Source: an uncultured delta proteobacterium (GTDB lineage: Bacteria; Desulfobacterota; Syntrophobacteria; BM002). From it: a stretch of DNA of 34,042 bases. Below the pieces are notes generated by a model. That model saw only the letters and a list, made by a program, of their open reading frames with translations, made no database searches and had not been told where the DNA came from. Location: positions 1 to 34,042 of the forward strand of contig CAVQGX010000057.1 in the NCBI GenBank assembly GCA_963712115.1. The letters are read 5' to 3'. Position 1 is the stretch's first letter. Every line of letters starts with the position of its first letter. A program made the translations under genes and the position numbers. Of the stretch, positions 1 through 22,623 are shown in pieces.

Positions 1-460
1 TCCACGTACCCCTCTTTGCCGGCAAGGTAATTTTGGAACCATTCACCCTTGGAAGAGAAATGGTTGACCACATAATCAAACATGAGCTGAAATCCTGGCC
101 GATGATAACTACATCGTCCCAGGATCCAAGCTCGGGGTTGATAGCGAGGAAGTCCATGACGGAAAATCCGTCATCGGAGGAGTAGGGGAAGAATGGCAAG
201 AAATGTATGGTTGAAATCGCATCCTTTATATAATTACTGGCAAAGTTGTGTAACGTAACCAGCGGCACTTCTCCCTCTCTTAACAAGGAGTCACCATAGG
301 TAATCAAGACTACGTCTTCTTGAGAAAAATAACCTTGTCCCTTACTTTTTTGGACCATGGTTTTTTCTATCAAAGGAACAATTCTTTTTAAGGCCGACTC
401 CCCTTCCCTCTCGCCGTAGATCCTTGTCAGAATACGTTTCACCCTATCGAAGTCAGCCAT
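1..460 (-). CDS. GH13_18 sugar phosphorylase (sucrose/glucosylglycerate phosphorylase family), 5' part, truncated by the window edge
   Basis: Not in the ORF track. Manual translation from ATG at 460 (AAGGGAG RBS upstream) gives MADFDRVKRIL...DVVLITYGDSL...TIHFLPFFPYSSDDGFSVMDF...LGSWDD...LMFDYVVNHFS, the LITYGD / HxLPFFPYSSDDGF / DxVxNH signature of GH13_18. Confidence 0.9.
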   Translation of the reverse strand, partial: MADFDRVKRILTRIYGEREGESALKRIVPLIEKTMVQKSKGQGYFSQEDVVLITYGDSLLREGEVPLVTLHNFASNYIKDAISTIHFLPFFPYSSDDGFSVMDFLAINPELGSWDDVVIIGQDFSSCLIMWSTISLPRVNGSKITLPAKRGTW

Positions 461-513
461 TGTCAGTCTCCCTTTATTACCAGTCCCCGCTCCGCAATTG
501 TGACCTTTTGCTC

Positions 514-620
514 GAGTAATGGAGCGATGGAGTACCGGAGTAATGATGAAGACTTATTAAAGTTGAAATCCCGGTTTAAGCTTTTTCCAACACTCCACTA
601 CTCCACTACTCCAATGTCCA
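514..620. repeat. Inverted pair of degenerate 8-nt repeat arrays (GGAGTAAT-like ... CCACTACT-like)
   Basis: gagtaatggagcgatggagtaccggagtaatg at 514-545; ccaacactccactactccactactccaat at about 587-615. Confidence 0.75.
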
Positions 621-686
621 AGACTCTCCTTTACCTCTCAGGTTTTCCGAATCAAGACCACTTCGATAACTGGATTAGACCTCCGC

Positions 687-1973
687 TTATCCAAACAGTT
701 CAGGATGTTTGATGGCGGCGATGTCGAGTCGCCTGCGTAAGACGTCGTAAGAGAAGAAACGTTTGCCCAACTCATAGTTATGATCCACCATCTCCCGACA
801 GAGCTTCGGATCTGCAAGAACCTGTTTTGTCTGTTCCACCGCATCTTTCGTCACATAACCATCGAGTTCTATTACAGAGAATCCTTTGGGCTTTATATCT
901 TTTGTGTAAATTGAATAGGTATTTACAGCTACCGGTTTACTGAAATAGATGGCTTCCAAAAATGCATTGCCGAAACCCTCAAAGGTGGAAGGATATGTTA
1001 CCAGGTCGGCATAGGGATAGACATCGTCGAGGGTGTAAATCTTCCTTCCATCATCAGTACGCCCCCTTTTTTCATTGATTATATCCGAGGCAAAGAGCAG
1101 ATCTACCTTGAGGAAATGTGCATATTCCTTGAGCCTTTCCTGATAATCGAAGCCCTCGTCACCCGCATCGTGGGAAATAACCAGCTTGGCTTTCATCCCC
1201 AGCCTACAAACCAATTCTATGGCATGCTCAATCCCCTTTCGCTTAACAACTCGAGTAGGCTGAAGGACAAATAACTCATCATCTGCAATTCCTATGGCCT
1301 GTCTAACATCAAAAGTGTAATCATCGGGAGGTGGCGGTGGATTTTCAAAATCCATAATATTGGGAACGACCCGTCCTGAAATGCCAGTCCTGAGACTTAA
1401 CTGTTCATTAGCAAAAGAATTTATCACCAAGTGATTGAGGGTGGGCAAATTCGGCGGAAAGGCCATATTCAAGTAATCGGCAACAGCGTTTATGCTGAAC
1501 CGGTCACGCTCCCAGTAAAAATCGTGGTGGTGGGCCACGGCGGGCATCCCTGTTTCCGCAATCACCTCGGTGATGGCAAGGCCCAGAGGAATATTCATCG
1601 GGATGGTAAGAGAATTTTCCGGCATCAACAGATCTATCTTGAATTGCTCTATAAAGGAATAGAGATCATCCTTGAGTCTCCTTTTAATCTCTTGAATCTT
1701 ACTGGTTAGTGAACGAGAACGGGTGGATACACCGAAGCAGGCTTGCTGAATGTCTTGGATCTCGGGATGGTTGAAATGGGCTTGTTCGGCTAGATATGAT
1801 CGCGCTGGGGGACGGTCCAACTCCCCGGCGAAATAGTAACAGGTAAGACCTCGCTCCTCCATAACCTGCACCCATTTTTCAGACTCCAGGGAAACCCCGT
1901 CTGTCCCCGCCAACCGGGTGGACAAGATGCCAACTCTTTTTACCCTGCTCCTGCCCCACATGCCATATTCCAT
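687..1973 (-). CDS. Glycosyltransferase family 4, resembling the MggA (mannosylglucosyl-phosphoglycerate synthase)-like group
   Basis: N-terminal GTDGVSLE.EKW, HHHDFYWER, PTRVVKRKGIEHA and GT-B EGFGNAFLEA (EX7E) motif. The subgroup assignment is from memory of the family. Confidence 0.85.
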   Translation of the reverse strand: MEYGMWGRSRVKRVGILSTRLAGTDGVSLESEKWVQVMEERGLTCYYFAGELDRPPARSYLAEQAHFNHPEIQDIQQACFGVSTRSRSLTSKIQEIKRRLKDDLYSFIEQFKIDLLMPENSLTIPMNIPLGLAITEVIAETGMPAVAHHHDFYWERDRFSINAVADYLNMAFPPNLPTLNHLVINSFANEQLSLRTGISGRVVPNIMDFENPPPPPDDYTFDVRQAIGIADDELFVLQPTRVVKRKGIEHAIELVCRLGMKAKLVISHDAGDEGFDYQERLKEYAHFLKVDLLFASDIINEKRGRTDDGRKIYTLDDVYPYADLVTYPSTFEGFGNAFLEAIYFSKPVAVNTYSIYTKDIKPKGFSVIELDGYVTKDAVEQTKQVLADPKLCREMVDHNYELGKRFFSYDVLRRRLDIAAIKHPELFG

Positions 1974-1983: not shown

Positions 1984-3630
1984 TTACTCGGTTCGCATTC
2001 TCTTAAAGTAGTTGATCAGGCCATTGGTGGAAGAATCATGGGAAGATATAGATCCGTCTCCTTCGAGTTCCGGCTCAATTACTCTAGCCAACTGCTTGCC
2101 CAGCTCCACACCCATCTGGTCAAATGAGTTTATCTTCCAGATGACACCCTGGGTAAAGATCTTGTGTTCATAGAGGGCAATGAGCGAACCCAATGTTTCT
2201 GGCGTGAGTTCCTTGAAAAGAAATGAGTTAGTAGGTCTGTTCCCCTCGAAAGTCTTGGCCGGTACGAGCCGCTCTAACTCATGCCCAGACAGGCCTGAAG
2301 CTGTGAGTTCGGCTCTCACTTCTTCCTCAGTCTTTCCTTTCATCAGTGCCTCAGTCTGGGCCAGGAAGTTGGCGATGAGAATGGTGTGGTGGTTGCCCAT
2401 GGGGTTGTGGCTTAGAGCCGGGGCCAAAAAATCGCAGGGGATCAGCTTGGTACCCTGATGGATTAGTTGATAGAAGGCGTGTTGTCCGTTGGTTCCCGGC
2501 TCACCCCAGATGATGGGACCGGTTGAGTAGTTCACCTTCTCCCCTTCTTTGGTCACACCTTTTCCATTGCTTTCCATATCACCTTGCTGAAAATAGGCTG
2601 GAAAGCGGTACATGTACTGGTCGTAGGGCAAAATGGCATGGGTCTCAGCGCCAAAAAAATTGTTGTACCAGATTCCCAGTAATCCCATAAGCACCGGGAT
2701 GTTCTCCTCAAAGGGTGTGGTGCGAAAGTGCTCGTCAACCTTGTGGGCCCCACTCAGAAGTTCTTCGAAGCGGGCCATGCCAACTGAGAGCACAATCGGC
2801 AGGCCAATGGCAGACCACAAGGAATAGCGACCACCTACCCAGTCCCAAAACTCAAACATATTATTCGGATCGATCCCAAAATTGGACACTTCAGTAGTGT
2901 TAGTGGAAACGGCGACGAAATGCTTGGCAACTGCCCCTTCATTCTTGGCTTCAGCAAGAAACCACTCCCTGGCGGAGATGGCGTTGGTCATGGTCTCCTG
3001 GGTAGTGAAGGTCTTGGAGGCAATAATGACTAGGGTGGTCTGAGGACTGACTCGCTTAAGCGTTTCTGCCAGATGCGTACCGTCGATATTAGAAACAAAA
3101 TGTGAGCGCATCTTAGGATGAGAATAGTGGGCCAGTGCCGCGGTTACCATTTGCGGCCCCAAATCAGAGCCGCCAATACCAATATTTACCACATCGGTCA
3201 TGGCCTTGCCCGTATACCCCTGCCACTCTCCCGATCGAACATAGTCACTGAAAAGCCTCATCTTTTCGAGAACACTATTGACCTCGGGCATAACATTCTT
3301 GCCGTCAACCAAAATCGGCCTATCTGAGCGATTACGCAGAGCAACATGGAGGACAGCCCGACCCTCGGTTTTATTGATCTTCTCCCCGGAGAACATGGCC
3401 TCGATCATCTCAGCAAGGCCTGCTTGTCGCGCCAATTCTATAAGCAGATCAATGGTCTTTTGGGTAATCCGGTTCTTGGAGTAGTCGAATAGGATATCAT
3501 CGAGACGTAGTGAGAACTTCTCAAAGCGTCCGGGATTACTGGTAAATAGATCCCGCATATGTAGGCCGGAGATCTCCTGATAGTGTTCTTCTAGATCCTT
3601 CCAAGCTGGTACTTGGGTCACGGGTGGCAT
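1984..3630 (-). CDS. pgi: Glucose-6-phosphate isomerase
   Basis: [53 protein letters not shown] motifs; 548 aa. Confidence 0.98.
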
Positions 3631-3635
3631 GGTAT

Positions 3636-5720
3636 TTATCCCTTTCTTCTCTCAAAAACCACAACGCTCCGCGGCTGCACAGTGTATAAACAGTTTCTCA
3701 CTGCAGGCTGCTCAGGTGGTTCCAAGATATCTGCTGGTGGGTCTTGGTAGGTGTCCACTGCTCTAAACCAGGCGGAGTTGGGGATTGGAGGCAACTCCGT
3801 CTGCTCGGAACTTTCCGACATATTGAGTACTACATGAATGTCTTCCTCGCTCTCTGAAACTGCGCTGAGAGCGAAGGCAAGAAGTTGAGCGTTGGGATCA
3901 TCCCACGGGGGCTCATTGACTTTGGCGCCATGCCAGGTCACGTCGGGAAAATGGTGGCCTTTCTGTTTTTCGCCTCTCAGAAATCGATTCCGCCTGAGAC
4001 AGGCGTGACGTTTGCGAAAGGCAATCATCTGCTTGACAAAGCGGAACATATCCTTGTTTTGTTCGGTCAAGGTCCAGTCGAACCAGCCTAACTCGTTGTC
4101 CTGGCAGTATGCATTGTTGTTGCCGCGCTGACTTCTGAGCACCTCATCGCCTGCAAGGAGCATGGGCACACCCTGACTGAGCAGGAGGATGGCCATGAAA
4201 TTCTTCGCCTGCCGTCTGCGGAGTGAAAGAATTCGGGGATCCTTTGTTTTTCCCTCCTGCCCACAGTTCCAGCTCAAATTGTCACTGGTCCCATCGCGAT
4301 TGTCTTCGCCGTTGGCCTTATTGTGCTTTTCGTTGTAGCTGACAAGGTCGTAGAGGGTGAAGCCGTCATGACAGGCCACAAAGTTGATACTATTGATCGG
4401 CAATCTTCCATGGGGCTGATATAAATCGCTACTGCCGCTGAGTCTGGTTGCGATCTCTCCCACCAGCCCTTTTTCGCCACGGACGAACCTCCGGATCACA
4501 TCGCGGTATCTACCGTTCCACTCTGCCCAGCGGAAACCGGGAAAAGCTCCAACCTGATAGAGCCCAGCGGCATCCCAGGCTTCCGCGATGATTCTGGTGT
4601 GCGCTAGCACATCCGAGAGCTCGATGCTCCAGAGAACAGGCGGATGCTGCATGGGACTGCCGTCCTCACCGCGGGCCAGGACACTGGCCAGATCAAAGCG
4701 GAAGCCATCTACGTGCATCTCACGAACCCAGTATTCCAGACACTCGACAATAAATGTGGCTACCAGTGGATGGTTGCAGTTGACTGTATTGCCGCATCCG
4801 GTGTAGTCGCGATAGACACTACGGTCTCTGGGGTCGAGATGGTAGAATGTTTGGTTGCCGAAACCTTTGAAGTTGATGGTGGGGCCACCCGCACCTCCTT
4901 CGGCGGTGTGATTGAAAACCACATCCAGGATAACCCCGATACCCGCTTTGTGCAGAGCCTTGACCATGTCCCGGAATTCTTTAAGATGTGATCCCTCCTT
5001 TGGTGTAATGCAGTAGCCTGGATGGGGACTGAAGAAGCTGTGTGTGCTGTAACCCCAGTAATTCTTTAATCCTCTTCTGGCAACTCCCTCAGGCACATCT
5101 TGCTCGTCAAAGGCCATAATGGGCATCAACTCGACATCGGTGACTCCGAGCTCCTTGAGGTAGGGAATTTTCTCTATCACCCCGGCGAATGTACCTGGAT
5201 TGGCAACATTCGACGAAGGGTGCCGGGTAAATCCACCAACATGCAGTTCATAGATAATGGTGTTTTCCAATGAGTGGTTTAGCGCTTCATCCCCCTCCCA
5301 ACTGTAAGTCCGCTCAACCACAACACACCGCATGGATGCACTGCAGTCACCTTCTGCTTGGCTGATGCGTTTACGATCCCAGAATTCCTGGGTGACGGCG
5401 CGAGCCCAGGGATCCAATAACTCCCTGTGTTTGTTGAACCTAAAACCTGATTTGCGGGTGTCGTCTGGCCCGTCAACTCGCCAGCTGTAGTGAGTTCCCA
5501 CCGGTAGATCTTCCACAAAAACATGCCAGGAATAAAACGTCCGATTCAGTTCAGGATCCAGCTGGATTACCTGGAAAGGCGCGGGACTGTCTGCATGCTC
5601 ATAGAGCAGCAATTCCACGGTCGTAGCATGGCCGCTCAAGGTAGAGAAGTTAACCCCTTCGGAATCCACTGTTGCCCCAGGGGGATAGCGCGACCCGGGT
5701 CGAATGTTGTATTTTTTCAC
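3636..5720 (-). CDS. glgX: Glycogen debranching enzyme / isoamylase (GH13_11)
   Basis: [70 protein letters not shown]; GTG start. Confidence 0.96.
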
Positions 5721-5891: not shown

Positions 5892-7322
5892 CTATTTCCG
5901 TCTCAGGTCGATGATCTCCATTCGATTATTTGCTTCCGGATGCTCGGGTGACGGTCCAGCGGATAGGATTACCAGATCTCCTTCCAATCCGTGCGCTTGC
6001 ACCCAGTCCCTGGCAAAAAGGTTCCAGTTCTCCACCGTCTCAGGGACATGCAGAGGATGAACGCCATAGGAAAATTGCAGTTTCTGGCAGGTCTTCTCGT
6101 CCGAGCTAACGGCGGCTATCCAAATGGGAAGCCTGAAACGGGCTATACTACGAGCGGACGCGCCCGTTAGGCTAGGAACGATCACAGCTGCCGGGGAGAC
6201 GGTTTCCACCGCAGTCTCAACACTCAAAGCAAGAAGATCTGTCAGTCTGACATTGCAATCGAGGCCGCACTGTTTGAGCTCCTCACGAGCCCTATATGCG
6301 GGACGGTGTGGCTCGGTGGCAGCGGCTATTTTTACCAGCATGGCTGTAGCCTCCACAGGATAACTTCCCATGGCCGACTCCTCGGAGAGCATTACACAGT
6401 CAGTACCGTCCAGAATGGCATTGGCCACATCCGTAGACTCCGCCCGGGTAGGACGGCGGTTCACCGTCATCGACTCCAGCATCTGGGTGGCGGTGATTAC
6501 AGGTTTCCCCAGGAGGTTCGCTCTCCTTATTATCTCCTTCTGGGCTATGGCTATTTGCTCTATTGGTATTTCCACTCCCAAATCCCCACGGGCTACCATA
6601 ATTCCATCTGCAGCTTCTAGGATATCCTCCAAGTGATCCCGCGCCCTTGAGCGCTCGAGCTTGGCGATAATGAAGGGGTTGTGTCCCAAGGCGGCAGCAG
6701 CTTGTCTGACAGCCATAATGTCTGCTGCCGACTCCACGAAAGACTGGCTAACCGCGTCTACTCCTTGTTCCAGGGAGAACTTTAGACATTCATGGTCTCG
6801 CTCGGTAAAAGCGCTCATACCGAGATCTATACCAGGCAAATTCAGCCCTTTTCGAGACCACAATTCACCGCCCACCAAGACCCGACAAAAGACATGGTTG
6901 TCTTCAACGGACACAACTTCCAGCTGAATAAGTCCATCATTGAGAAACAGTGTGTTTCCGGGCTCTACAGCTCGAGGGAGTCGATCAAATGAAACTGATA
7001 CCCCTTTACTATCGCCAACCCCTGCGCCTACTGTGAGAGTGAAAGGCTCACCTGCTTTCAGCTCGATGGGCTCCTCAGCAAGCTCCCCAATACGCATCTT
7101 CGGGCCAGGCAAATCGGCCATGATGGCGACCCGTCGCCCCACCGCCTGGGCAGCAGCGCGGATATTCTCAATTACCTTCTTATGACTGGCAAAGTCCCCA
7201 TGTGAGAGGTTTAGACGGGCCACATTCATACCGGCTAGAATCATCTTCTCCAGAACCTCAGGAGATTCTGACGCCGGCCCGATAGTACAGACAATCTTGG
7301 TCTTGTTGGGCGGAAGTGTCAT
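5892..7322 (-). CDS. pyk: Pyruvate kinase (DLPGPK, K+-independent type)
   Basis: TKIVCTIGPAS, ARLNLSHG, GIMVARGDLGVE, ATQMLESM, PTRAESTDVANAILDG. The start is probably the second ATG (7322, GAGG upstream) rather than 7337. Confidence 0.97.
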   Translation of the reverse strand: MTLPPNKTKIVCTIGPASESPEVLEKMILAGMNVARLNLSHGDFASHKKVIENIRAAAQAVGRRVAIMADLPGPKMRIGELAEEPIELKAGEPFTLTVGAGVGDSKGVSVSFDRLPRAVEPGNTLFLNDGLIQLEVVSVEDNHVFCRVLVGGELWSRKGLNLPGIDLGMSAFTERDHECLKFSLEQGVDAVSQSFVESAADIMAVRQAAAALGHNPFIIAKLERSRARDHLEDILEAADGIMVARGDLGVEIPIEQIAIAQKEIIRRANLLGKPVITATQMLESMTVNRRPTRAESTDVANAILDGTDCVMLSEESAMGSYPVEATAMLVKIAAATEPHRPAYRAREELKQCGLDCNVRLTDLLALSVETAVETVSPAAVIVPSLTGASARSIARFRLPIWIAAVSSDEKTCQKLQFSYGVHPLHVPETVENWNLFARDWVQAHGLEGDLVILSAGPSPEHPEANNRMEIIDLRRK

Positions 7323-7333
7323 GCACAGAACCC

Positions 7334-9163
7334 TCATTTAAGAGGAAAAAGTAGCGGCACAACCAGCAAGGTAACCACCATGGCCAGAACCTGTAGCGGC
7401 ACGCCTACCTTAATAAAATCATTAAATTTATATCCGCCTGGCCCAAGAACCAGAGTATTCACCGGCGATGCCACCGGGGTTGAGAAAGCTGTCGAGGCGG
7501 CCAGGGCCACAGTCATCAGGAAAGGATAAAGCGAAACCCCCGCCTCCATGGCAGTGCCAACGGCAATGGGGGCAACCAATACGGTAGTAGCGGTATTGGA
7601 AATAAACTGACTAAAAATAGAAGTAATGACAAACAAACCCGCCATCAGAGCTATGGGACCAAATTCGCCCAGGCTTTCCGTAAGGGTGTTGACGATTAAC
7701 TCTACTCCTCCGGTCTTTTCCAGAACTGTGGCCATGGGTAGCATTCCAGCAATAAGCACCAAGCTTTCCCAGTTCACCGACCTGTAGGCATCTTTCATGC
7801 TCACACAGCCGACAAGGACCATGGCCAATGCTGCCAGCAAGACCGCGGTAACTGCATCCACAAGCTTGAAGGTCATCAGCAGCATCATGCCCAAGGTGAC
7901 CGTCAGGGCCCAGGGGGCTTTACTTCGATTTGGGGCAACCTCGCTCATTTCTTTGGGCAGATTCAAAACCAGGAAGTCCTTTTGCCTGCCTTGCAAAAGA
8001 TCGATTTGAGTCCAGCCTCCACCCATTAGAAGTGAATCTCCGAAAGCAAGAGCAGTTTCAATCAACTCTTTCTTCAACGGCTCACCCTGGCGTAAAACGG
8101 CAAGAACAGACAAACCGTATCGCTCGCGAAAGCGAGCTTCGCTAAGAGTCTTGCCGACGACTTCGGACCTTGGTGCCAACAGCACCTCCACTAGCCCAAG
8201 TTCTTGAGCCGCAACTTTGCTCTGCCCCTCCCCGATCTCCAACCTCTCCAACTCTTCAGCCTTTACCAGCCTGTCCACCTCCTCATCGGTGCCAACCACG
8301 TAGATGATGTCCCCTGCCCTGAACTGCGTACCGATAAGGGCGGGCTTCACCGTCTTAGTGCGGCGCTGCTGCCGTTCTACCCCGAGCACGGTTACGCCAT
8401 ATCTGGTTCGCAGCAGGGCTTGGCCCACAGTCTTGCCTTCCAAAGCTGAACCGGCCCATAGGCGCAAGCGGTGTAACTGATTAGTAACGTTATAAATCTC
8501 GGCAAGGTCTATCAGGGAGAGACGGTCTTTTGCTGCGCCCTCCACCCCTTCCCCCCGGGGAAGTGAGCGACGCCCGAACAGCATTATGTATGCAATTCCA
8601 ACAAGCAGAACCAGCAGACCAATGGGGGTAAAGTCGAAAAATCCGAAGGATTCTAAACCCTCCCTGGCCAACTGGGTGCTCACCACCAGGTTGGGCGGGG
8701 TGCCGATCAGGGTCAACATCCCGCCAATGAGCGAGGCAAAGGCCAGGGGCATCATCAGCCGTGAAGGACTTGAGCCGACCTTGGCTGCCAAATTAAGAGC
8801 TACCGGGATAAATATGGCAACAGCCCCAGTGGAGCTCATAAATGCGGAAAGACCAGCCACCACCAGCATCAACAGGATCAACAGACGGCTTTCATTGGTT
8901 CCGGCAACGCTCATCAGCCAGTCGCCAATGGCGTATGCCACGCCTGTTCGAAAAAGCGCCTCCCCCACCACAAAGAGACCTGCAATCAACAATACCACGG
9001 GGTCACCAAAACCAGCCAGGGCAGCGGTCGGTGAGAGCAAGCCACTGAGTATCAGAGTTATTATGACCATGATGGCCACCACATCCAGCCGAAACAAGCC
9101 GCTAACAAATAGGATTATGGTGATCAGCAACAGGCCAAAAACAAACAGGATTTCACCTGTCAT
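7334..9163 (-). CDS. SLC13/DASS-like (CitMHS) permease with two TrkA-C (RCK_C) domains
   Basis: Hydrophobic N- and C-halves with GGMLTLIGTPPNL, SQFISNTAT, TPVASPVN and GGYKFNDF motifs. The central soluble part has two GKT...LRxRYGxxVL repeats. Confidence 0.9.
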   Translation of the reverse strand: MTGEILFVFGLLLITIILFVSGLFRLDVVAIMVIITLILSGLLSPTAALAGFGDPVVLLIAGLFVVGEALFRTGVAYAIGDWLMSVAGTNESRLLILLMLVVAGLSAFMSSTGAVAIFIPVALNLAAKVGSSPSRLMMPLAFASLIGGMLTLIGTPPNLVVSTQLAREGLESFGFFDFTPIGLLVLLVGIAYIMLFGRRSLPRGEGVEGAAKDRLSLIDLAEIYNVTNQLHRLRLWAGSALEGKTVGQALLRTRYGVTVLGVERQQRRTKTVKPALIGTQFRAGDIIYVVGTDEEVDRLVKAEELERLEIGEGQSKVAAQELGLVEVLLAPRSEVVGKTLSEARFRERYGLSVLAVLRQGEPLKKELIETALAFGDSLLMGGGWTQIDLLQGRQKDFLVLNLPKEMSEVAPNRSKAPWALTVTLGMMLLMTFKLVDAVTAVLLAALAMVLVGCVSMKDAYRSVNWESLVLIAGMLPMATVLEKTGGVELIVNTLTESLGEFGPIALMAGLFVITSIFSQFISNTATTVLVAPIAVGTAMEAGVSLYPFLMTVALAASTAFSTPVASPVNTLVLGPGGYKFNDFIKVGVPLQVLAMVVTLLVVPLLFPLK

Positions 9164-12284: not shown

Positions 12285-12496
12285 TTGGAGTATGGAGTCT
12301 TAGAGGAATAGAAATTCCAAATCACAAGATCACAAATATCAAACAAATAACAATGACCAAAATTCAAGATTCCAAACATGTTTCGGTCATTGGATATTGG
12401 ACATTTGGGATCTGATTGTAATGTGGTGCTTGGAGTTTGGGACTTCATAAGTTCGCCATGCTGCACACTCTAGTACTTCAGTGCTCCAACACTCCA
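12285..12496. repeat. Nested inverted repeat: outer GGAGT/ACTCC 8-mer arms around an inner ~135-bp AAATTCCAAA...TTGGGACTTC foldback
   Basis: ttggagtatggagt | gaaattccaaatcacaag...tgaccaaa...ttcggtcattgg...ttggagtttgggacttc | ...ctccaacactcca. Confidence 0.75.
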
Positions 12497-14569: not shown

Positions 14570-16174
14570 CTACGACGGTCCTGCACCGCGGATTTCTTCG
14601 GAGACGTCTTCAGCAAACTGCTTGAAGTTCTCCGCAAACATGGAGGCCAGTTTTTTCGCCTGTTCGTCGTAACCCGCCTTGTCCTTCCAGGTGTTCCGTG
14701 GTTGAAGTACCTCGGAGGGTACATCAGGGCAGGTCTCGGGCACCTCGATCCCAAAGAAAGGATCCTTGGTCCTCGGAATTTCTTCCAGGGTGCCATTCAA
14801 CACCGCGCTCACCATAGCGCGAGTGTAAGGTAGTTTGATTCGTTTCCCGGTTCCGTAGGGACCGCCGCTCCAGCCGGTGTTGATAAGCCACACTGAGGCG
14901 TTGTGCTTTGCTATCTTCTCACCCAAGAGATCCGCATATACCACTGGATTTAGGGCCATGAATGGAGCACCAAAGCAGGCACTAAACGTAGCCTGCGGCT
15001 CTTTTATACCCCTTTCAGTCCCGGCCACTTTAGCGGTGTAACCGGAAAGAAAGTGATACATTGCCTGTTCCGGTGTCAGTTTTGCTACAGGCGGCAACAC
15101 CCCGAAGGCATCTGCTGTAAGAAACAGTATTTGTTTAGGATGACCGGCCTGCCCATCCCGTGCGGCATTGGGGATGTGAGAGATCGGGTATGATGCCCGG
15201 GTATTCTCTGTGAAGGCATCGCTGTCCAGGTCGAGACGCCTGCTAGCCGAATTTATGGCGACATTCTCCAGAATTGTGCCGAACCGCCGGGTGGTTTCGT
15301 AAATCTCAGGCTCAGCCTCGGGGGATAACCTGATTACCTTTGCGTAACAGCCCCCTTCGAAGTTAAACACTCCTTCTTCGCTCCAGCCATGCTCATCGTC
15401 GCCGATAAGAGTTCGATCCGGATCAGCCGAAAGGGTGGTCTTGCCCGTACCCGAAAGGCCGAAAAACAGGGCAACATCATCTTGGCTTTTACCGTAGTTG
15501 GCTGAGCAGTGCATGGGCAAAACTTTCTGTTCCGGCAGTATGTATGTCATCACTGTCAGCATGGTCTTTTTCATCTCACCAGCATAGTGACTACCTGCGA
15601 CGAACGCTTCCATTCGCCCCAGATTGAGCAGGACCACGACCTCAGAATTCGTGCCGTCTTCCTCGGGGTTGGCATTGAAGCCCGCAGCATCGAGAATAGT
15701 GAATTTAGGTTGGTGTTGGGCCAGCTCGAGTGGATCCAGTTCCCGCACAAACATGTTGCGGGCAAAAAGATTGTGCCAGGCCTTCTCGGTAATCACTCTA
15801 ATGGGAAGCCTATACTTCGGGTCTGTACCTACGTAACAGTCCTGGACATAAAGATCTTTTCCCTCGAGATAGGCCAGGATGCGAGCCCGTAATGCTTCAT
15901 AACGCTCGGGGCTGAAAGGCCGATTGACCTCACCCCAGTAAATCTTGTCCTGGCTAGATGGCTCTCGAACGAGGTACTTGTCGTTGGGGGAACGGCCCGT
16001 GTACTGACCGGTCCGAACCACAAGTGGTCCGAGATGGGACATGAGTCCTTCATGCCGTTGAAGGGCGTGTTCATATAGGGCGGGACTCGATAAGTTCCAC
16101 CATATGGTATTGGCATTGGTTATTCCAAAGTCCTCTAAACCATGTAGACTCCTCACTAGACCTTGATCTTGCAT
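14570..16174 (-). CDS. pckA: Phosphoenolpyruvate carboxykinase (ATP)
   Basis: [59 protein letters not shown]. The start is probably ATG 16174 (GGAGG RBS); the ORF track gives 16186. Confidence 0.97.
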
Positions 16175-16187
16175 TTTAACCTCCATA

Positions 16188-16275: not shown

Positions 16276-17308
16276 TTAAGCATCAAATAGCGTCATACCA
16301 GTTGCTCTCAAGTCTTTCACCGCCTGCTTTACCCGCTCAGCCATGGCTTCTTCCGCCATTTTCATATAGACGCGAGGGTCATATGTCTTCTTGTTGCCCA
16401 CTTCCCCATCAACCTTGAGAACACCATCGTAGTTCTTCAGCATGTGGTCTGCTATTGGACGAGTGAAAGCATATTGGGTATCTGTGTCGATATTCATCTT
16501 CACCACACCGTAATCAACTGCCTCTCTAATCTCATCAAGGGAGGAACCCGACCCTCCATGGAATACCAGATAAAATAATCCTTCCTTACCATATTCCTCT
16601 AACAGAGCATCCTGGCCATCCTTCAGGATTGAGGGCTTGAGTCGGACATGACCCGGCTTGTAAACCCCGTGGACATTACCGAACGTTGCAGCCACCAAAT
16701 AACGTGCACCTTTTACCTCATTCATCCTGCGAGCTGCTTCGAGCATATCTTCAGGTGTTGTATAGAGCTTTTCTGCCGGCCCCTCTGCCGTGACGCCATC
16801 CTCCTCACCCCCAACAACTCCCACCTCGATTTCGAGAATCAGCTCATTCTTGTGGCAACGCTCCAGAAGAGGAACAGAGATATCCAGGTTTTCCTTTAAG
16901 GGAAGTGCACTGCCATCAAACATGTGACTGTTGAACAAATTACCCTGACTAGCCGCCCTGCGTCTTTCTGTCTCTTCTATTAAAGGGATCATGAAGCTAT
17001 CGAGCTTATCCGCCGGACAGTGGTCCGTGTGCAAAGCAACGTAGATATCGTATCTTTCGGCAGCACGGTGGACGTGCTCGGCAATTGAAATGGCCCCTAG
17101 GGCCATGTCCTTGACCGACTGAACCCGAAGCGAAAGCACCACCCCCGGTGGAAACCTGAATGAAGCCGTCGCTCCTGCTCTCGGCCAGACCTTTCAAGAC
17201 AGCGTTTGCTGTAGTAAGAGAGGTGACATTAATGGCGGGGTAGGCGAACTTTTTATCTCGCGCCCTATCCAACATTTTGCAATAGGTCTTATAGTCAGCA
17301 ACTGGCAT
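16276..17308 (-). CDS. fbaA: Class II fructose-bisphosphate aldolase, split by one extra base near 17122
   Basis: The N-terminal frame MPVADYKTY...FAYPAINVTS...IQVSTGGGAFASG joins QSVKDMALGA...HTDHC...VVGGEEDG...FGNVHG...FHGGSGS...KMNIDTD if one T is removed from GGT-T-CAG. Confidence 0.93.
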
Positions 17309-17423: not shown

Positions 17424-18740
<1,317 letters not shown>

Positions 18741-19028: not shown

Positions 19029-19085
19029 GACACATTGAGGTTCAAGCTACGATTTAATTGACCACAAATTAATAGGGGAATCGTT

Positions 19086-20306
19086 ATGGATCTGGATTTG
19101 CTTTCTTCGTTGGCTATTGAGAACGATACTAAAGTCGTTTTGGTAGTCCTGGACGGGGTGGGAGGTCTGGCGGGACCTAATGGCAAGACCTCTTTGGAGG
19201 CAGCCGAAACCCCGAATCTGGACGGGCTCGCGCGGTCCTCCATTTGCGGTTTTCATGATCCTCTAGGTCCGGGACTTACCCCTGGCTCCGGACCTGCACA
19301 TATCGGGCTTTTCGGCTACGACCCATTTCGCTATTTGATCGGGCGGGGCGTGCTGGATACGGCCGGTACACCCTTCGTGTTCGAACCGGGTGACATGGCC
19401 AGTCGCCTAAACTTCGCCACTTTGGCAGCCGACGGCACCATTGCCGACCGGCGGGCAGGAAGAATACCCGACGAGGAAGGCAAACGGGTGACCGAGTTGC
19501 TTGCCCAAAACATAAAAGAAATAGATGGAGTCCAGGTCTTGATGCAGCATGTCAAAGAATACCGGGCTGCGGCGATTTTCCGGGGAAAGAAACTGGACGG
19601 CCGCCTATGCGACAGCGATCCCCAACAGGTTGGCCACAAGCCACTACAAGTTGAACCCACCGAGAAAAACCCCACTGCCGAGGCCAAGGAAGCTGCAGGT
19701 CTCGCCAACAAGTTTATCGCCCAGGCAAAAGAAATACTAGCAGATGAACAGAAGGCTAACTTCGTCATGATGCGCGGTTTTGATATTTATGAGCCCCTGC
19801 CTAACTTCTGCGAACTTTACAAGTGGCGGGCTTGCGCGGTAGCCGCCTACCCCATGTACAAGGGAGTGTCTAAGCTGGCCGGCATGCGGGTGATCGAGGA
19901 AGGACAGTCTACCATTGAGGAAGAAATTGAGCTGGTGGAGCGTGAACTTCCCAACACTGACTTCCTCTTTCTCCATATTAAGAAAGCAGATTCCATGGGG
20001 GAAGACGGCAACTTTGACGGAAAAGTGGAGGTGATAGAACATTTCGACCGGTTACTGCCCCGCCTTGTGGATCTAAAACCTGATGTTCTCTGTATCACCG
20101 GCGACCACTGCACCCCTTGCAGTCTCAAAAGCCACTCCTGGCATCCGGTGCCCATCTGTATTGCCGCAGAAACTGTAAGGACTGACAGTTGCCAAACTTT
20201 CGGGGAGACGTCCTTTCTAACCGGAGGGCTGGGCCGTATTCACAGCACAGATGTGATGCCACTGCTTCTGGCCCATGGGGGACGATTGATGAAATACGGT
20301 GCTTAA
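19086..20306 (+). CDS. apgM: 2,3-bisphosphoglycerate-independent phosphoglycerate mutase, archaeal (ApgM) type
   Basis: VLDGVGG, LEAAETPNLD, TPGSGPAH, GRGVL, DRRAGRI, YPMYKG, HIKKADSMGEDG, TGDHCTP, HSWHPVP. Confidence 0.93.
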   Translation: MDLDLLSSLAIENDTKVVLVVLDGVGGLAGPNGKTSLEAAETPNLDGLARSSICGFHDPLGPGLTPGSGPAHIGLFGYDPFRYLIGRGVLDTAGTPFVFEPGDMASRLNFATLAADGTIADRRAGRIPDEEGKRVTELLAQNIKEIDGVQVLMQHVKEYRAAAIFRGKKLDGRLCDSDPQQVGHKPLQVEPTEKNPTAEAKEAAGLANKFIAQAKEILADEQKANFVMMRGFDIYEPLPNFCELYKWRACAVAAYPMYKGVSKLAGMRVIEEGQSTIEEEIELVERELPNTDFLFLHIKKADSMGEDGNFDGKVEVIEHFDRLLPRLVDLKPDVLCITGDHCTPCSLKSHSWHPVPICIAAETVRTDSCQTFGETSFLTGGLGRIHSTDVMPLLLAHGGRLMKYGA

Positions 20307-20330
20307 GCCAAGGTATAGGTTGGAGTTTCT

Positions 20331-20410
20331 ACCACGAAGGGCACAAAGAACACGAAGTTCATTATCAAATATATGTATTGTCTTTGTGCACTTTGTGATC
20401 TTTGTGGTTT
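20331..20410. repeat. 9-mer inverted repeat hairpin between convergent apgM and the oxidoreductase; may act as a terminator
   Basis: accacgaagggcacaaagaacacgaag ... ctttgtgcactttgtgatctttgtggt. Confidence 0.75.
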
Positions 20411-20422
20411 AAAAAGTACGAT

Positions 20423-22174
20423 CTAGTCCTGTTCGGCCTTGCCCAGTTGGAGGATTCGTTTCGCGTACTCCTTTTTCAACTCACTGAGGAATGCCTCATC
20501 CACTGGTCCCTTCCAGTTGGTCACTTCGGTAAAGCGCTTGGGAATCTTCACCGCTGCCGGATCAAAACCGGTGGCCAGCCGAAGTCGCCAGCGCAGCTTT
20601 TGGATATGCTGGGCCACCTTCTGCATGTTGTCGGCCAGAGTTATGTATCCCAGAGAACTCAGGCAGTCTGCCAGCAACTCATCCTTGTAAACTTCGCGAG
20701 CAAAAAGGCAGGCAACCATGGAGGTCAAAAGCACCCTGCCCTGTTCATCCTTCACCAGAAAATCGACCGCCTCCTTTACCTTCCTTTCTGTCGTGTGTTT
20801 CTGATCGTAAGAGTAGCCGCCGCTGTCCAAGTGGGAATGTCTGAATCCCAAAGCCTGGGAGGTGAAAAAGACCTCCCCGGTAGCATAGCCGGCCATTTCC
20901 TGACCGAGAACGCAGGCAAAATCTTCCCCGCCGTAGTGCTCCGCTGCTTTCATGGTTCCTTGCGCCAGCAGTCGATAGAAATCATTGGAGCCCAATCCTA
21001 AATGCTGTATGGCCTCCTTGTATCCTGCAGCATCATCAAATTTCAGCGGCACCAGGGTTTCTTTCTCCGAGATCACGCCCTTTTTCAGCGCTTCCGTTGC
21101 CCAGGCCAGTGCCACCCCCGCTGACATCACGTCCAGACCCATTTTTTCCACCATGTCAATGATTCCCAGGACACTGAAAGCATTGGTCATACCCAGCATG
21201 GAGCCGGTGGCGAAGATTGGTTCGTGGTCATAGGAGACCTGGCGATAGAGATACTGGTTGGGTTCCATAAATTTCTCTCGGACAAAACCGATATGGATGC
21301 AGCCCACAGGGCAGCCGGCACAGGCGGTGTTGCGCAAAAGGGTATCGTCGGCAAAGGTTTCACCGGTAATTCCTGCGATCTCCGGATCGTTTGTAGCTTG
21401 AAGATTCCTGCAAGGTAAAGCCTTAAGCTCATTCAATACAGCCACGTTAACGGGGGTGCCCAGATTGTGATATTTATCCATCATGTCGGTGGTGGTAAGC
21501 TGCTTGTGCACTTCCTCAAAGAGCTCTGCGTACTCTTTCCCCTCAGGCAGTTGGAATACACCATCGCCCTGAATCGCAATGGCCTTGAGATTTTTGCTCC
21601 CCATAACCGCACCACCGCCGAGCCTGCCGAAGTGACGGTAGGTATCCACAGTAATACAAGCATAGGCTGAGAGGTTTTCCCCTGCAGGGCCTATACGAAA
21701 GATCGACCGGTGGCCTGCGCCGCCAATCATCTTGCGAAGCATCTTGCCCGATCTCTGCAAGTCAATTCCCCACATGTAGTGAACATCCTTGACCTCGAGA
21801 TGGCGCGAGCCAATGGAGACGTAGCTTGGTCTATCAGCCTTGCCGGTAATCACCAACCCGTCCAGGTCAGCAAAACGTAAGGACAGGGCTGAGCGCCCCC
21901 CAGCGTGACTCTCTCCGTACTGATCATGATAGGGCGACTTGAAACCACATACGGTCTTACTCATGAGGGGAAAATATCCTGTAAGCGGTCCGATAGTGAA
22001 AATGAGAGGCTGCTCCGGATCGTCCCAAGGTTTGTTCAGGTGACCATATCTGTCAAATAGCAATGCTGCCAGCCCACTACCACCAGCCTCTGTATCACGA
22101 CCGTCAATGCTAACAATTTTACCCTTACCAGAGGTAAGGTCCACGGTGAGTATCCTGAAATGATCCCTGATCAT
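20423..22174 (-). CDS. W/Mo-pterin aldehyde:ferredoxin oxidoreductase family large subunit; probable glyceraldehyde-3-phosphate oxidoreductase GorL
   Basis: AOR motifs GGSGLAA, FKSP...ESHAGGR, IGPAGEN, GRLGGGAVMGSKNLKAI, CAGCPVGC, MGLDVMSAG. The GOR-clade assignment rests on RHFGRLG, EMAGYATG and RHSHLD-type blocks, the cognate Fe-S subunit and the glycolytic context. Confidence 0.85.
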   Translation of the reverse strand: MIRDHFRILTVDLTSGKGKIVSIDGRDTEAGGSGLAALLFDRYGHLNKPWDDPEQPLIFTIGPLTGYFPLMSKTVCGFKSPYHDQYGESHAGGRSALSLRFADLDGLVITGKADRPSYVSIGSRHLEVKDVHYMWGIDLQRSGKMLRKMIGGAGHRSIFRIGPAGENLSAYACITVDTYRHFGRLGGGAVMGSKNLKAIAIQGDGVFQLPEGKEYAELFEEVHKQLTTTDMMDKYHNLGTPVNVAVLNELKALPCRNLQATNDPEIAGITGETFADDTLLRNTACAGCPVGCIHIGFVREKFMEPNQYLYRQVSYDHEPIFATGSMLGMTNAFSVLGIIDMVEKMGLDVMSAGVALAWATEALKKGVISEKETLVPLKFDDAAGYKEAIQHLGLGSNDFYRLLAQGTMKAAEHYGGEDFACVLGQEMAGYATGEVFFTSQALGFRHSHLDSGGYSYDQKHTTERKVKEAVDFLVKDEQGRVLLTSMVACLFAREVYKDELLADCLSSLGYITLADNMQKVAQHIQKLRWRLRLATGFDPAAVKIPKRFTEVTNWKGPVDEAFLSELKKEYAKRILQLGKAEQD

Positions 22175-22623
22175 GACGCCACCTCCTCTGCCTCTTTTTC
22201 AGTCGAGGGCTCAACCACCACCTCCGCCATCTCCAAGCAATCATGGGGGCAGTAAACCACACACTGGCCGCAGTGGATGCAGACAAAGGGTTCGCTGGTG
22301 GCGTCGAGATAAATGGCGTCAACCGGACAGGCTTCGGCACAGTCGCCACATTGGATACACTGCTTACTCTTGAAAATCACTCCCCCGCCTTTGCGTTGAG
22401 AGAATGCACCTGTTGGACAGGCTAAAGCGCAGGGGGCAGGATGGCAGGCCAGGCAGGACTTTGCCTCAAAGCCCGTTGATAACCCGCCTGAGGATATAAT
22501 TCGAATACCCGCCGTATCCCAGGACAATCTTTTATGCACCAGGCGGGCACAAGCGAGTGAGCAGGAATGGCAGCCAATACATCTTTCCATCCTGGGAGTC
22601 GTTAGTACCTTCGCGGTTTTCAT
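22171..22623 (-). CDS. Polyferredoxin (4Fe-4S) small subunit, GorS-like; ATGA-coupled to the large subunit
   Basis: CIGCHSCSLAC, CLACHPAPCALACP, CIQCGDCAEACP, CIHCGQCVVYCP. The start is probably ATG 22623 (AGGAG RBS). Confidence 0.88.
   Translation of the reverse strand: MKTAKVLTTPRMERCIGCHSCSLACARLVHKRLSWDTAGIRIISSGGLSTGFEAKSCLACHPAPCALACPTGAFSQRKGGGVIFKSKQCIQCGDCAEACPVDAIYLDATSEPFVCIHCGQCVVYCPHDCLEMAEVVVEPSTEKEAEEVAS

What the first reader, a model, noticed from the sequence alone, without database searches (positions are those of the whole stretch)
1..22623. Glycolysis supercluster with a W/Mo ferredoxin oxidoreductase (GOR-like) in place of GAPDH/PGK
Seen in sequence: glgX, pgm, pgi, ATP-pfk, fbaA, apgM, eno, pyk and pckA lie within 22.6 kb. 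gap and pgk (and tpi) are absent, while an AOR-family large subunit with a coupled polyferredoxin sits next to apgM. Established: archaeal GAPOR and the heterodimeric GOR (GorS/GorL) of Caldicellulosiruptor bescii oxidise GAP directly to 3-phosphoglycerate and reduce ferredoxin. Inference: this cluster encodes an archaeal-style modified Embden-Meyerhof route for stored glucan or glycosides in a likely deltaproteobacterial anaerobe. Per glucosyl unit entering as G1P it would net about 1 ATP instead of 3, in exchange for four low-potential electrons. 3-PG, the GOR product, is the substrate of the adjacent ApgM. I do not know of such a near-complete single-locus version being described in this lineage.
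Basis: partly seen in the sequence, partly recalled or inferred. Interest (0 to 1): 0.85.

Follow-up and report, generated by a model that had tools for sequence, protein, structure and literature searches.

The report
GOR-like tungsten enzyme in glycolysis cluster
A sediment sulfate-reducer relative keeps nearly all its sugar-breakdown genes in one block together with a two-subunit tungsten-type enzyme that most likely oxidises glyceraldehyde-3-phosphate with ferredoxin, an enzyme type already known from Caldicellulosiruptor, and it keeps the ordinary enzymes for that step elsewhere in the genome.

Summary
The gene block is real: sucrose-phosphorylase-like fragment, GT4, pgi, glgX, pyk, DASS transporter, DUF6909, ATP-pfk, pgm, pckA, fbaA, eno, apgM, then a translationally coupled polyferredoxin (WorS) and AOR-family large subunit (WorL).

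Three corrections:
- The genome does have gap and tpi (contig C17) and pgk (C33), so nothing is replaced.
- fbaA carries a one-base frameshift in this assembly.
- apgM lies on the other strand, and none of 80 related loci has an apgM homologue nearby.

WorL belongs to a distinct, monophyletic AOR subfamily. Of 80 related loci, 77 have WorS directly upstream and 40 hold glycogen, Embden-Meyerhof or Entner-Doudoroff genes, in more than 30 gene orders. Sugar genes lie near 9 of 13 subfamily genes but only 1 of 51 paralogous AOR genes in relatives.

The best reading is a GOR-type glyceraldehyde-3-phosphate:ferredoxin oxidoreductase working in parallel with GAPDH/PGK, as in Caldicellulosiruptor bescii. 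I could not obtain the C. bescii sequence, so clade membership is untested, and no activity is known. This scan has reported the same enzyme-in-sugar-island pattern at least five times on other DNA. Verdict: a new member of a known kind, of moderate-low interest.

The parts
2..460 (-). N-terminal fragment of a sucrose-phosphorylase-like (GH13) glucoside phosphorylase, which would give glucose-1-phosphate. The gene runs off the contig end.
   Evidence: NCBIfam TIGR03852 at 53.7 bits, below the cut-off. The same gene follows GT4 in L011. The rest of the gene is not in the assembly.
687..1973 (-). GT4 glycosyltransferase, mannosylglucosylglycerate-synthase-like
   Evidence: Pfam Glycos_transf_1. 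NF041101 at 239 bits, below the cut-off of 640. Two paralogues on C42.
1984..3630 (-). pgi, glucose-6-phosphate isomerase
   Evidence: Pfam PGI, 819 bits. Only copy in the genome.
3636..5720 (-). glgX-type glycogen debranching enzyme
   Evidence: CBM_48, Alpha-amylase and ISOA1-3_C domains.
5892..7337 (-). pyk, pyruvate kinase
   Evidence: Pfam PK plus PK_C. Only copy in the genome. The gene most often found near WorSL, in 20 of 80 loci.
7334..9163 (-). DASS/CitMHS anion transporter with two TrkA_C domains. Overlaps pyk by 4 bases.
   Evidence: Pfam CitMHS at 328 bits plus TrkA_C. TIGR00785 at 188 bits, just below the cut-off.
9174..10856 (-). DUF6909 protein of unknown function inside the operon
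   Evidence: Pfam PF21850, 214 bits. No NCBIfam or PDB sequence hit. Also present in 2 of the 80 related loci, L009 and L014, between fba and pyk.
10970..12259 (-). ATP-dependent 6-phosphofructokinase
   Evidence: NF005301, 672 bits, cut-off 400.
12387..14150 (-). pgm, alpha-phosphoglucomutase
   Evidence: TIGR01132, 935 bits, cut-off 778.
14570..16186 (-). pckA, ATP-dependent PEP carboxykinase
   Evidence: Pfam PEPCK_ATP, 736 bits.
16276..17308 (-). fbaA, class II fructose-bisphosphate aldolase, in two frames because of one extra base near 17116-17120
   Evidence: NF006628 at 379 bits for the C-terminal part, which matches model positions 77-357 only. tblastn finds the two parts in frames -1 and -2. 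A one-base gap separates it from the intact L011 orthologue. Contigs of public runs lack the extra base.
17424..18737 (-). eno, enolase
   Evidence: Pfam Enolase_N plus Enolase_C. Only copy in the genome.
19086..20306 (+). apgM, archaeal-type cofactor-independent phosphoglycerate mutase. Divergent from eno and convergent with WorL.
   Evidence: NF003160, 533 bits, cut-off 468. Promoter-like site at 19000-19028, 11 of 12 matches.
20423..22174 (-). WorL, the GOR-L-like pterin and [4Fe-4S] subunit of the AOR/WOR family (P0001, 583 aa)
   Evidence: AFOR_N plus AFOR_C. Cys285, 288, 292 and 489 and T240, E318, Y430 and H448 are conserved. Distinct subfamily. Synteny.
22171..22623 (-). WorS, GOR-S-like polyferredoxin with four CxxCxxCxxxC motifs. 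Likely start is ATG 22623, preceded by AGGAG; the ORF is open to 22650.
   Evidence: Translation. Fer4 families. 4-base overlap with WorL. Median length in relatives is 149 aa. Ribosome-binding site read.
22687..23033 (-). Promoter-like sites upstream of worSL (consensus matches only)
   Evidence: Sites at 23033-23005 (11 of 12 matches) and 22714-22687 (10 of 12).

Best explanation
The block is a catabolic cluster for stored glucan and glucosides. Glucose-1-phosphate would come from the phosphorylase-like enzyme at the left edge, or from glycogen through GlgX and the GlgP encoded on another contig. It would then pass through Pgm, Pgi, ATP-Pfk and FbaA.

Glyceraldehyde-3-phosphate can then be oxidised directly to 3-phosphoglycerate by the cytoplasmic WorS/WorL enzyme. 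Electrons would pass from the metal-pterin site through the [4Fe-4S] cluster of WorL and the four clusters of WorS to ferredoxin. ApgM, Eno and Pyk finish the route. PckA and the DASS transporter may form a C4-dicarboxylate branch.

The enzyme works beside the GAPDH/PGK pair encoded elsewhere, not instead of it. The cell can therefore choose between ATP plus NADH, or reduced ferredoxin without ATP and without a need for phosphate.

Shown here: the gene identities, the cofactor-binding residues, the distinct subfamily, and its recurrent and specific linkage to sugar catabolism. Inferred: GAP as the substrate, ferredoxin as the acceptor, tungsten rather than molybdenum, and the direction of flux.
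For: 1. Gene content.

2. WorS carries 16 Cys in four CxxCxxCxxxC motifs and has no obvious signal sequence. It overlaps worL by 4 bases. The order is S then L, like the gorSL operon of C. bescii (PMC8579813, passages read).

3. WorL keeps the [4Fe-4S] cysteines and the four second-shell residues T240, E318, Y430 and H448, which match PfAOR T243, E313, Y427 and H448. The review PMC12096430 says all four are kept in the GOR clade but only two in GAPOR.

4. WorL belongs to a distinct subfamily. Full-length representatives at 34-55% identity score 322-724 bits. Generic AORs score about 213 bits or less, and PfAOR (1aor) scores 186 bits. The subfamily is monophyletic against 12 generic AOR representatives. 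Its signature includes:
- Y315-D316
- G433, where 66 of 71 generic AORs have Arg
- H446, where 68 of 71 have Gly
- eight gained basic positions

5. Synteny in 80 loci with WorL at 60% identity or more:
- WorS lies directly upstream in 77.
- At least one glycogen, EMP or ED gene lies within the flank in 40, and on the same strand within 5 kb in 38.
- More than 30 different gene orders occur.
- Counts: pyk 20, glgP 10, dPGM 10, fba 9, pfk 9, pgi 9, pgl 7, pgm 6, glgX 6, edd 6, eno 5, eda 5, zwf 4.
- EMP and ED both yield GAP.
- gap (4), pgk (1) and tpi (0) are the rarest pathway genes in these neighbourhoods.

6. Control in 20 relatives plus this genome: sugar genes lie near 9 of 13 subfamily genes and near 1 of 51 other AOR-family genes.

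7. A phosphoglycerate mutase lies beside WorSL in two non-homologous forms: apgM here, and dPGM in 10 of 80 loci (NF010713, 424 bits, cut-off 305).

8. Pyk and ATP-Pfk mark the glycolytic direction.

9. TupA- and TupB-like genes lie on C31 next to a molybdopterin biosynthesis gene, though below the equivalog cut-offs.
Against: - No enzyme of this lineage has been assayed.
- I could not obtain the C. bescii GOR-L sequence, so the subfamily's relation to WOR clade 20 is untested here (searches did not list it).
- WorL plus WorS (Class II) occurs in 40 of 92 WOR clades, so the subunit make-up is not diagnostic (PMC13328260).
- Half of the related loci (40 of 80) show no sugar gene within the flank. 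Two same-genus complete chromosomes (L119, L125) have WorSL without sugar genes within 10 kb.
- gap lies in the same array as WorSL in 4 loci.
- In this window worSL is separated from the rest of the block by the oppositely oriented apgM, so it is not co-transcribed with it.
- fbaA is frameshifted in this assembly. If that is real, the upper pathway is broken.
- The NCBIfam archaeal GAPOR model scores only 19 bits against a cut-off of 1300.
- The related loci are kin, so the counts overstate independence.
Confidence: 0.62

Rival explanations
1. WorSL is a broad-spectrum aldehyde:ferredoxin oxidoreductase. It would detoxify reactive aldehydes formed during sugar catabolism, such as methylglyoxal-derived aldehydes, glycolaldehyde or acetaldehyde, and would be co-located with glycolysis for co-regulation only.
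For: The four second-shell catalytic residues are those of the generic aldehyde-oxidising AORs. Most characterised WORs are detoxifying enzymes with broad range (PMC13328260). 40 of 80 loci show no sugar gene nearby.
Against: The subfamily is clearly separate from generic AORs and has its own active-site-region signature. Paralogous AORs in the same genomes are not sugar-linked, 1 of 51. Tight same-strand placement inside EMP and ED operons in more than 30 gene orders is unusual for a detoxifying enzyme.
Confidence: 0.2
2. WorSL acts on another pathway intermediate or end product. Candidates are non-phosphorylated glyceraldehyde, or acetaldehyde/acetate interconversion at the fermentative end of the island.
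For: ackA lies in 9, pta in 6 and ldh in 4 of the 80 neighbourhoods. AOR-family enzymes oxidise glyceraldehyde in archaeal non-phosphorylative ED routes (recalled, not checked here).
Against: The ED genes found beside WorSL are those of the phosphorylative route: zwf, pgl, edd and KDPG aldolase. That route yields GAP, not glyceraldehyde. ackA and pta occur together with glycolytic genes in most arrays. No aldehyde-forming enzyme such as an acetaldehyde dehydrogenase was among the recurrent neighbours.
Confidence: 0.1
3. WorSL runs in reverse. It would reduce 3-phosphoglycerate to GAP with low-potential ferredoxin, for ATP-saving gluconeogenesis or glycogen synthesis.
For: pckA lies in the block. 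AORs can reduce acids with very low-potential donors (abstract of PMC9295118, seen in the listing).
Against: The linked genes are the glycolysis-specific pyk, ATP-pfk and glgP. No FBPase or PEP synthase is linked in the window. GAPOR-type reactions are treated as unidirectional (PMC12525153). GAPDH and PGK are present for gluconeogenesis.
Confidence: 0.05

Closest known systems
GOR (formerly XOR) of Caldicellulosiruptor bescii: heterodimeric glyceraldehyde-3-phosphate:ferredoxin oxidoreductase, WOR clade 20, Class II
   Same: - Two genes in the order small then large subunit.
- A small subunit with four [4Fe-4S] motifs.
- A large subunit with one [4Fe-4S] site and all four second-shell residues.
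- Cytoplasmic.
- The organism also has a conventional GAPDH, so the route is parallel.

Sources: PMC13328260 section 9, PMC12096430 and PMC8579813, passages read.
   Different: - In C. bescii gorSL is described as a stand-alone two-gene operon under Rex (PMC8579813). Here, and in 40 of 80 relatives, it lies inside or beside glycogen, EMP or ED gene arrays.
- A recalled Rex-box pattern was not found upstream.
- The host is a mesophilic sediment Desulfobacterota-type MAG, not a thermophilic cellulolytic Firmicute.
- Sequence relationship to GOR-L was not measured here.
Archaeal GAPOR (Pyrococcus furiosus; WOR clade 23, Class I; NCBIfam NF040818)
   Same: The proposed reaction is the same (GAP to 3-phosphoglycerate with ferredoxin, no ATP), and so is the role in a modified Embden-Meyerhof route.
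   Different: GAPOR is monomeric and has no WorS. P0001 scores 19 bits against a cut-off of 1300. GAPOR keeps only two of the four second-shell residues (PMC12096430), whereas P0001 keeps all four.
AOR sensu stricto (P. furiosus AOR, PDB 1aor) and other solved WORs (FOR 1b25, WOR5/ASOR 6x1o, A. aromaticum AOR 8c0z, BamB 4z3w)
   Same: The same fold family, the same cofactor-binding cysteines and the same catalytic-shell residues.
   Different: Only 80-186 bits to P0001. The subfamily differs at positions otherwise nearly fixed in generic AORs: G433 for Arg, H446 for Gly, and Y315-D316 for Pro-Glu. Generic paralogues are not linked to sugar genes.
Dde_2943/Dde_2944 (aor-2 plus 4Fe-4S ferredoxin) of Desulfovibrio alaskensis G20
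   Same: An AOR plus ferredoxin pair next to a phosphoglucomutase/phosphomannomutase (Dde_2945), an order seen in several of my loci. Transposon mutants, like those of molybdopterin biosynthesis genes, lose fitness (-1.6) after 10 days of phosphate-replete stationary phase (PMC5193443, Table 1, read). That would fit a role in using reserves.
   Different: The paper does not propose a glycolytic role.

Membership tests
AOR/WOR family (tungsten/molybdenum pterin aldehyde oxidoreductases) | AFOR_N and AFOR_C domains | tested here: met
   PF02730 at 195 bits and PF01314 at 173 bits, both above the cut-offs.
AOR/WOR family (tungsten/molybdenum pterin aldehyde oxidoreductases) | Four Cys ligands of the [4Fe-4S] cluster (PfAOR C288, C291, C295, C494) | tested here: met
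   C285, C288, C292 and C489 are invariant in 52 of 52 subfamily sequences. They align to the PfAOR cysteines.
AOR/WOR family (tungsten/molybdenum pterin aldehyde oxidoreductases) | Second-shell catalytic residues Thr243, Glu313, Tyr427, His448 (PfAOR numbering, PMC12096430) | tested here: met
   T240, E318, Y430 and H448. Each is kept in 50-51 of 52 subfamily sequences.
Class II WOR (WorL plus WorS, cytoplasmic, ferredoxin-linked; PMC13328260) | [quoted passage not shown] | tested here: met
   Four CxxCxxCxxxC motifs in P0002. The N-terminus has no twin-arginine motif or hydrophobic stretch, read by eye. 4-base overlap with worL. WorS lies upstream in 77 of 80 loci.
Bacterial GOR (WOR clade 20, C. 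bescii type) | WorL branches with C. bescii GOR-L in the WOR tree | not testable with these tools
   No C. bescii sequence could be fetched. Three protein searches and two cluster look-ups did not list it. Table_1.xlsx of PMC13328260, which lists clade members, was too large to read.
Bacterial GOR (WOR clade 20, C. bescii type) | gorS-gorL two-gene unit with GOR-S carrying four clusters | tested here: met
   PMC8579813; PMC13328260 section 9.
Bacterial GOR (WOR clade 20, C. bescii type) | Specific oxidation of glyceraldehyde-3-phosphate with ferredoxin | not testable with these tools
   Needs an enzyme assay. Context evidence only.
Bacterial GOR (WOR clade 20, C. bescii type) | Works alongside a conventional GAPDH in the same organism | tested here: met
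   Type I GAPDH on C17 and pgk on C33.
Archaeal GAPOR (NF040818, WOR clade 23) | Score above the equivalog cut-off; monomeric, with no WorS | tested here: not met
   19.1 bits against a cut-off of 1300. A WorS gene is present.
AOR sensu stricto (PfAOR-like, broad-spectrum) | Groups with generic AORs in sequence space | tested here: not met
   186 bits to 1aor, against 322-724 bits within the subfamily. The subfamily is a separate clade in the tree.

The most novel reading that the evidence does not exclude
This WorSL lineage is not the C. bescii clade. On this reading it is a separate lineage that became a GAP:ferredoxin oxidoreductase on its own, and it is widespread in Desulfobacterota and Nitrospirota, with relatives in Thermotogota and archaea. 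It would be the main, phosphate-independent route by which 'non-saccharolytic' sulfate reducers and syntrophs burn stored polyglucose through EMP or ED. That route would feed low-potential electrons to hydrogen production or sulfate reduction during starvation.
Probability: 0.15. Interest if true: 0.6.

Novelty: new member of a known kind. Interest (0 to 1): 0.35.

Why it matters
If the assignment holds, many sulfate reducers, syntrophs and Nitrospirota would have a ferredoxin-linked branch for breaking down stored glucan that saves no ATP. That would change the expected ATP yield, the hydrogen and ferredoxin balance, and the phosphate dependence of their maintenance metabolism in sediments. 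It would also give a physiological role to a large, unassayed clade of tungsten-type enzymes. For genome annotation, the practical point is that these 'aldehyde ferredoxin oxidoreductase' genes should be read as candidate GOR genes, and that their presence does not mean GAPDH and PGK are missing.

Tried and rejected
1. Fetching C. bescii GOR-L for a direct phylogeny.
- The search for homologous proteins with P0001 listed only close relatives.
- With P0136, chosen for low-GC composition, it listed a Kosmotoga/Thermotogota/Riflebacteria clade.
- With P0134, chosen for thermophile-like composition, it listed a Thermoprotei/Asgard/Bathyarchaeota clade.
- Two cluster look-ups and the Atlas gave no Caldicellulosiruptor name.
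- The single genome-contig scan kept only the best 80 loci, all at 60% identity or more.

2. Papers.
- PMC6597818, PMC8639347, PMC4579436 and the JBC DOI are not held.
- 'Athe_0821' is in no held paper.
- The readable supplements of PMC13328260 do not give clade membership. Table_2 lists obsolete tree nodes in which a C. owensensis entry stands next to Desulfovibrio, Desulfobulbus and Geobacter entries. Whether that order follows the tree is unknown, so I do not use it as evidence.

3. A recalled Rex-box pattern gave one match at 5705, not upstream of worSL, with 1.8 matches expected by chance.

4. The WtpA model had no match in a genome that is 94% complete.

5. The RNA run X15 has contigs at 92-99% likeness over fba, eno, apgM and part of worL. 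These are contigs of a relative from an RNA library that may hold DNA, so I make no claim of expression.

6. Assigning the eight subfamily-specific basic residues to a phosphate pocket was not possible without model coordinates.

7. DUF6909 had no PDB sequence match, and the Atlas returned only DUF6909 clusters.

Full report
**The observation**

The window is the whole contig C57 of a 4.9-Mb MAG that is 94% complete with 6% contamination. On the minus strand from right to left lie:
- a 4x[4Fe-4S] polyferredoxin (22171-22650; likely start 22623, behind an AGGAG)
- an AOR-family large subunit (20423-22174), whose start overlaps the polyferredoxin stop by 4 bases

After apgM on the plus strand (19086-20306) the minus-strand array goes on:
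- eno, fbaA, pckA, pgm and ATP-pfk
- a DUF6909 protein
- a DASS/CitMHS transporter with TrkA_C domains
- pyk, glgX and pgi
- a GT4 glycosyltransferase
- the first 153 codons of a sucrose-phosphorylase-like gene, which runs off the contig

The names rest on Pfam and NCBIfam scores above the curated cut-offs, as listed under parts. DNA to the right of 22.7 kb is unrelated: a solute-binding fragment, MscS, GGDEF, SIS, BacA and a LuxR-type regulator. In this genome pgi, pyk, pckA, eno and class II fba have their only copy here.

**Corrections to the observation**

1. The genome is not short of gap, pgk or tpi.
- A type I GAPDH (TIGR01534, 438 bits, cut-off 367), a divergent 435-aa GAPDH-like gene, tpi and secG form an array on C17.
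- pgk lies at 19.8-21.0 kb of the 184-kb contig C33.
- The missing part of the left-edge gene is on no other contig, so what follows the left edge is unassembled.
- pgk cannot be adjacent, and the gap-tpi array has its own context.

2. fbaA is in two frames.
- Against the intact orthologue of L011, the window has one extra base near 17116-17120.
- The one X1 contig and the two X2 contigs that cover the place lack one base there. So do three X6 contigs, while the rest of the X6 depth agrees with the window (table 4).
- It is therefore an assembly error or a strain-level lesion, not a feature of the lineage.

3. apgM is convergent with worL and divergent from eno. In this genome worSL is therefore its own transcription unit. 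Promoter-like matches lie at 23033-23005 and 22714-22687 (consensus matches only).

**What the AOR-family pair is**

P0001 has AFOR_N and AFOR_C domains. Its best solved relative is P. furiosus AOR at 186 bits; FOR, WOR5, A. aromaticum AOR and BamB score lower. The alignment to 1aor, together with a 123-sequence alignment, shows two things:
- The cluster cysteines are C285, C288, C292 and C489.
- T240, E318, Y430 and H448 stand at the places of PfAOR T243, E313, Y427 and H448.

The review PMC12096430 (passages read) states that all four of these residues are kept in the bacterial GOR clade, but only Thr and Glu in archaeal GAPOR. The NCBIfam GAPOR model scores 19 bits against a cut-off of 1300, so this is not an archaeal GAPOR.

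P0002 has four CxxCxxCxxxC motifs and no evident export signal. That makes the pair a Class II WOR in the scheme of PMC13328260. Class II occurs in 40 of 92 clades, so this alone says little.

**A distinct subfamily**

I scored P0001 against 1.84 billion cluster representatives.
- Full-length proteins of 554-607 aa at 34-55% identity score 322-724 bits.
- Generic AORs then follow at about 213 bits and below.
- In a FastTree of 18 subfamily sequences, 10 named members and 12 generic representatives, the subfamily is one clade and P0001's Desulfobacterota group is an early branch.
- Other branches are a Kosmotoga, Mesotoga, Pseudothermotoga, Riflebacteria and Erysipelotrichia group, a Thermoprotei, Asgard and Bathyarchaeota group, and Methanosarcinaceae.

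I compared 52 subfamily sequences with 71 generic ones. The subfamily has:
- Y315-D316 where the others have Pro-Glu
- G433 where 66 of 71 have Arg
- R-H446-S-H448 where the others have R-G-(A/G)-H
- basic residues gained at 94, 156, 160, 234, 459, 480, 528 and 532

Whether any of these bind the phosphate of GAP could not be tested.

**Synteny**

The one genome-contig scan returned 80 loci with WorL at 60-91% identity. They come from MAGs and a few isolates labelled:
- Syntrophobacterales, Desulfobacterales, Desulfobulbaceae and Desulfovibrionaceae
- Syntrophus and Syntrophorhabdus
- Thermodesulfovibrionales/Nitrospirota
- one Acidobacteriota

I searched them by tblastn with the window's proteins and with neighbours that I had first clustered and named by Pfam. 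All 80 loci were examined.
- WorS lies directly upstream in 77.
- 40 hold at least one glycogen, EMP or ED gene in the fetched flank, and 38 hold one on the same strand within 5 kb.
- More than 30 different gene orders occur.
- Counts: pyk 20, glgP 10, dPGM 10, fba 9, pfk 9, pgi 9, pgl 7, pgm 6, glgX 6, edd 6, eno 5, eda 5, zwf 4, gap 4, pgk 1, tpi 0, apgM 0.
- Fermentative genes: ackA 9, pta 6, ldh 4.
- 36 loci show only WorS-WorL, some of them on short contigs.

Two points matter. First, both the EMP arrays and the phosphorylative ED arrays (zwf-pgl-edd-eda) produce GAP, which is the one intermediate they share. Second, the step after the proposed reaction, phosphoglycerate mutase, lies beside WorSL in two unrelated forms: apgM here and in one same-genus relative (L122), and dPGM in 10 loci (NF010713, 424 bits).

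**Control**

In 20 relatives plus this genome, the AFOR_N model found 71 matches. I fetched up to 10 kb on each side of 60 of them.
- Left out: six partial low-scoring matches, and one match already inside another region.
- Sugar genes lie near 9 of 13 subfamily genes and near 1 of 51 other AOR-family genes.
- The four subfamily loci without sugar genes include two complete chromosomes of the same genus (L119, L125), so the linkage is frequent but not obligatory.

Kin are not independent and these counts are not a statistical test. The contrast and the variety of gene orders are the argument.

**Mechanism proposed**

Glucose-1-phosphate, from the phosphorylase-like enzyme or from glycogen via GlgX and the GlgP on C38, passes through Pgm, Pgi, ATP-Pfk and FbaA. 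GAP is then oxidised either by GAPDH/PGK or by WorSL, which would give 3-phosphoglycerate and reduced ferredoxin. ApgM, Eno and Pyk follow.

With both routes encoded, the split is a matter of regulation. C. bescii is described the same way: GOR 'in place of GAPDH' in PMC13328260, and an alternative to the CggR-controlled gap in PMC8579813. I also recall, but could not re-read, the 2019 JBC abstract, which says that GOR works in parallel with GAPDH and occurs in 44 mostly anaerobic genera.

The WorSL route needs no inorganic phosphate, which is an inference worth testing. The metal is open: TupA- and TupB-like genes on C31 score below their cut-offs, and WtpA has no match.

**A lead from the literature**

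In D. alaskensis G20, Dde_2943 (aor-2), Dde_2944 (4Fe-4S ferredoxin) and Dde_2945 (phosphoglucomutase/phosphomannomutase) are numbered consecutively. Mutants of the first two, like those of molybdopterin biosynthesis genes, lose fitness only after 10 days of phosphate-replete stationary phase (PMC5193443, Table 1 and text passages). This would fit a role in living off reserves, but I did not test orthology.

**Novelty**

Bacterial GOR is an established enzyme class. My searches of the held library found no paper that assigns this function to the Desulfobacterota lineage or describes such clusters, but the key GOR papers are not held. Earlier agents of this scan reported the same enzyme in sugar islands of a Syntrophobacter-class bacterium, a Syntrophales-like anaerobe, a Desulfocapsa-like bacterium (ED operon), a Methanofastidiosa-type archaeon and one more genome. 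One of their windows shares 45 of 110 short words with P0001. Their statement that the lineage is sister to C. bescii GOR is a lead that I could not check. My own synteny and ED findings agree with theirs.

The present window is the fullest single-locus version I saw among 80 loci plus 13 relatives. That is a matter of degree, so I file it as a new member of a known kind.

Noticed in passing
window 16276-17308 (near 17116-17120): The genome's only class II fbaA is frameshifted by one extra base. Contigs of related populations in three public runs lack that base, while part of run X6 agrees with the window.
   Followed up: yes
window 9174-10856: A 560-aa DUF6909 protein lies inside the glycolytic array between pfk and a transporter. 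It also lies between fba and pyk in L009 and L014. It has no NCBIfam or PDB sequence match. Atlas clusters of the family are mostly from Bacteroidota.
   Followed up: partly
window 7334-9163 and 14570-16186: A DASS/CitMHS anion transporter with TrkA_C domains overlaps pyk by 4 bases, and an ATP-PEP carboxykinase lies in the same array. Together they might form a C4-dicarboxylate branch or export route of glucan fermentation (inference only).
   Followed up: no
window 2-1973: A GT4 glycosyltransferase resembling mannosylglucosylglycerate synthase (239 bits, below the cut-off) lies next to a sucrose-phosphorylase-like gene. The same pair follows pgi in L011. The block may serve turnover of a glucosylglycerate-type compatible solute as well as glycogen.
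   Followed up: no
G000 contig C50 (14,594 bases) versus window 24138-30578: C50 carries copies of the SBP, MscS, GGDEF and SIS genes of the window's right half at 95-99% amino-acid identity. The MAG seems to hold two strains or a redundant contig.
   Followed up: partly
L002:1324-2631 (G000 C17, next to gap): A divergent 435-aa GAPDH-like gene (TIGR01534, 305 bits, below the cut-off of 367) lies directly upstream of the canonical gap-tpi-secG array and downstream of a PPDK/PEP-synthase-like fragment.
   Followed up: no
window 16266 / 20391: One low-depth contig of run X6 (depth 4) joins 16266 to 20391 with 9 other letters between. This would be a population variant in which worL is followed directly by the pckA side, without fba, eno and apgM.
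   Followed up: no
L149 (G000 C31:193156-196911): TupA-like (231 bits, cut-off 400) and TupB-like (209 bits, cut-off 320) genes lie beside a gene with a molybdopterin-biosynthesis domain and an HTH domain. This may be a tungstate or molybdate uptake and regulation unit.
   Followed up: partly
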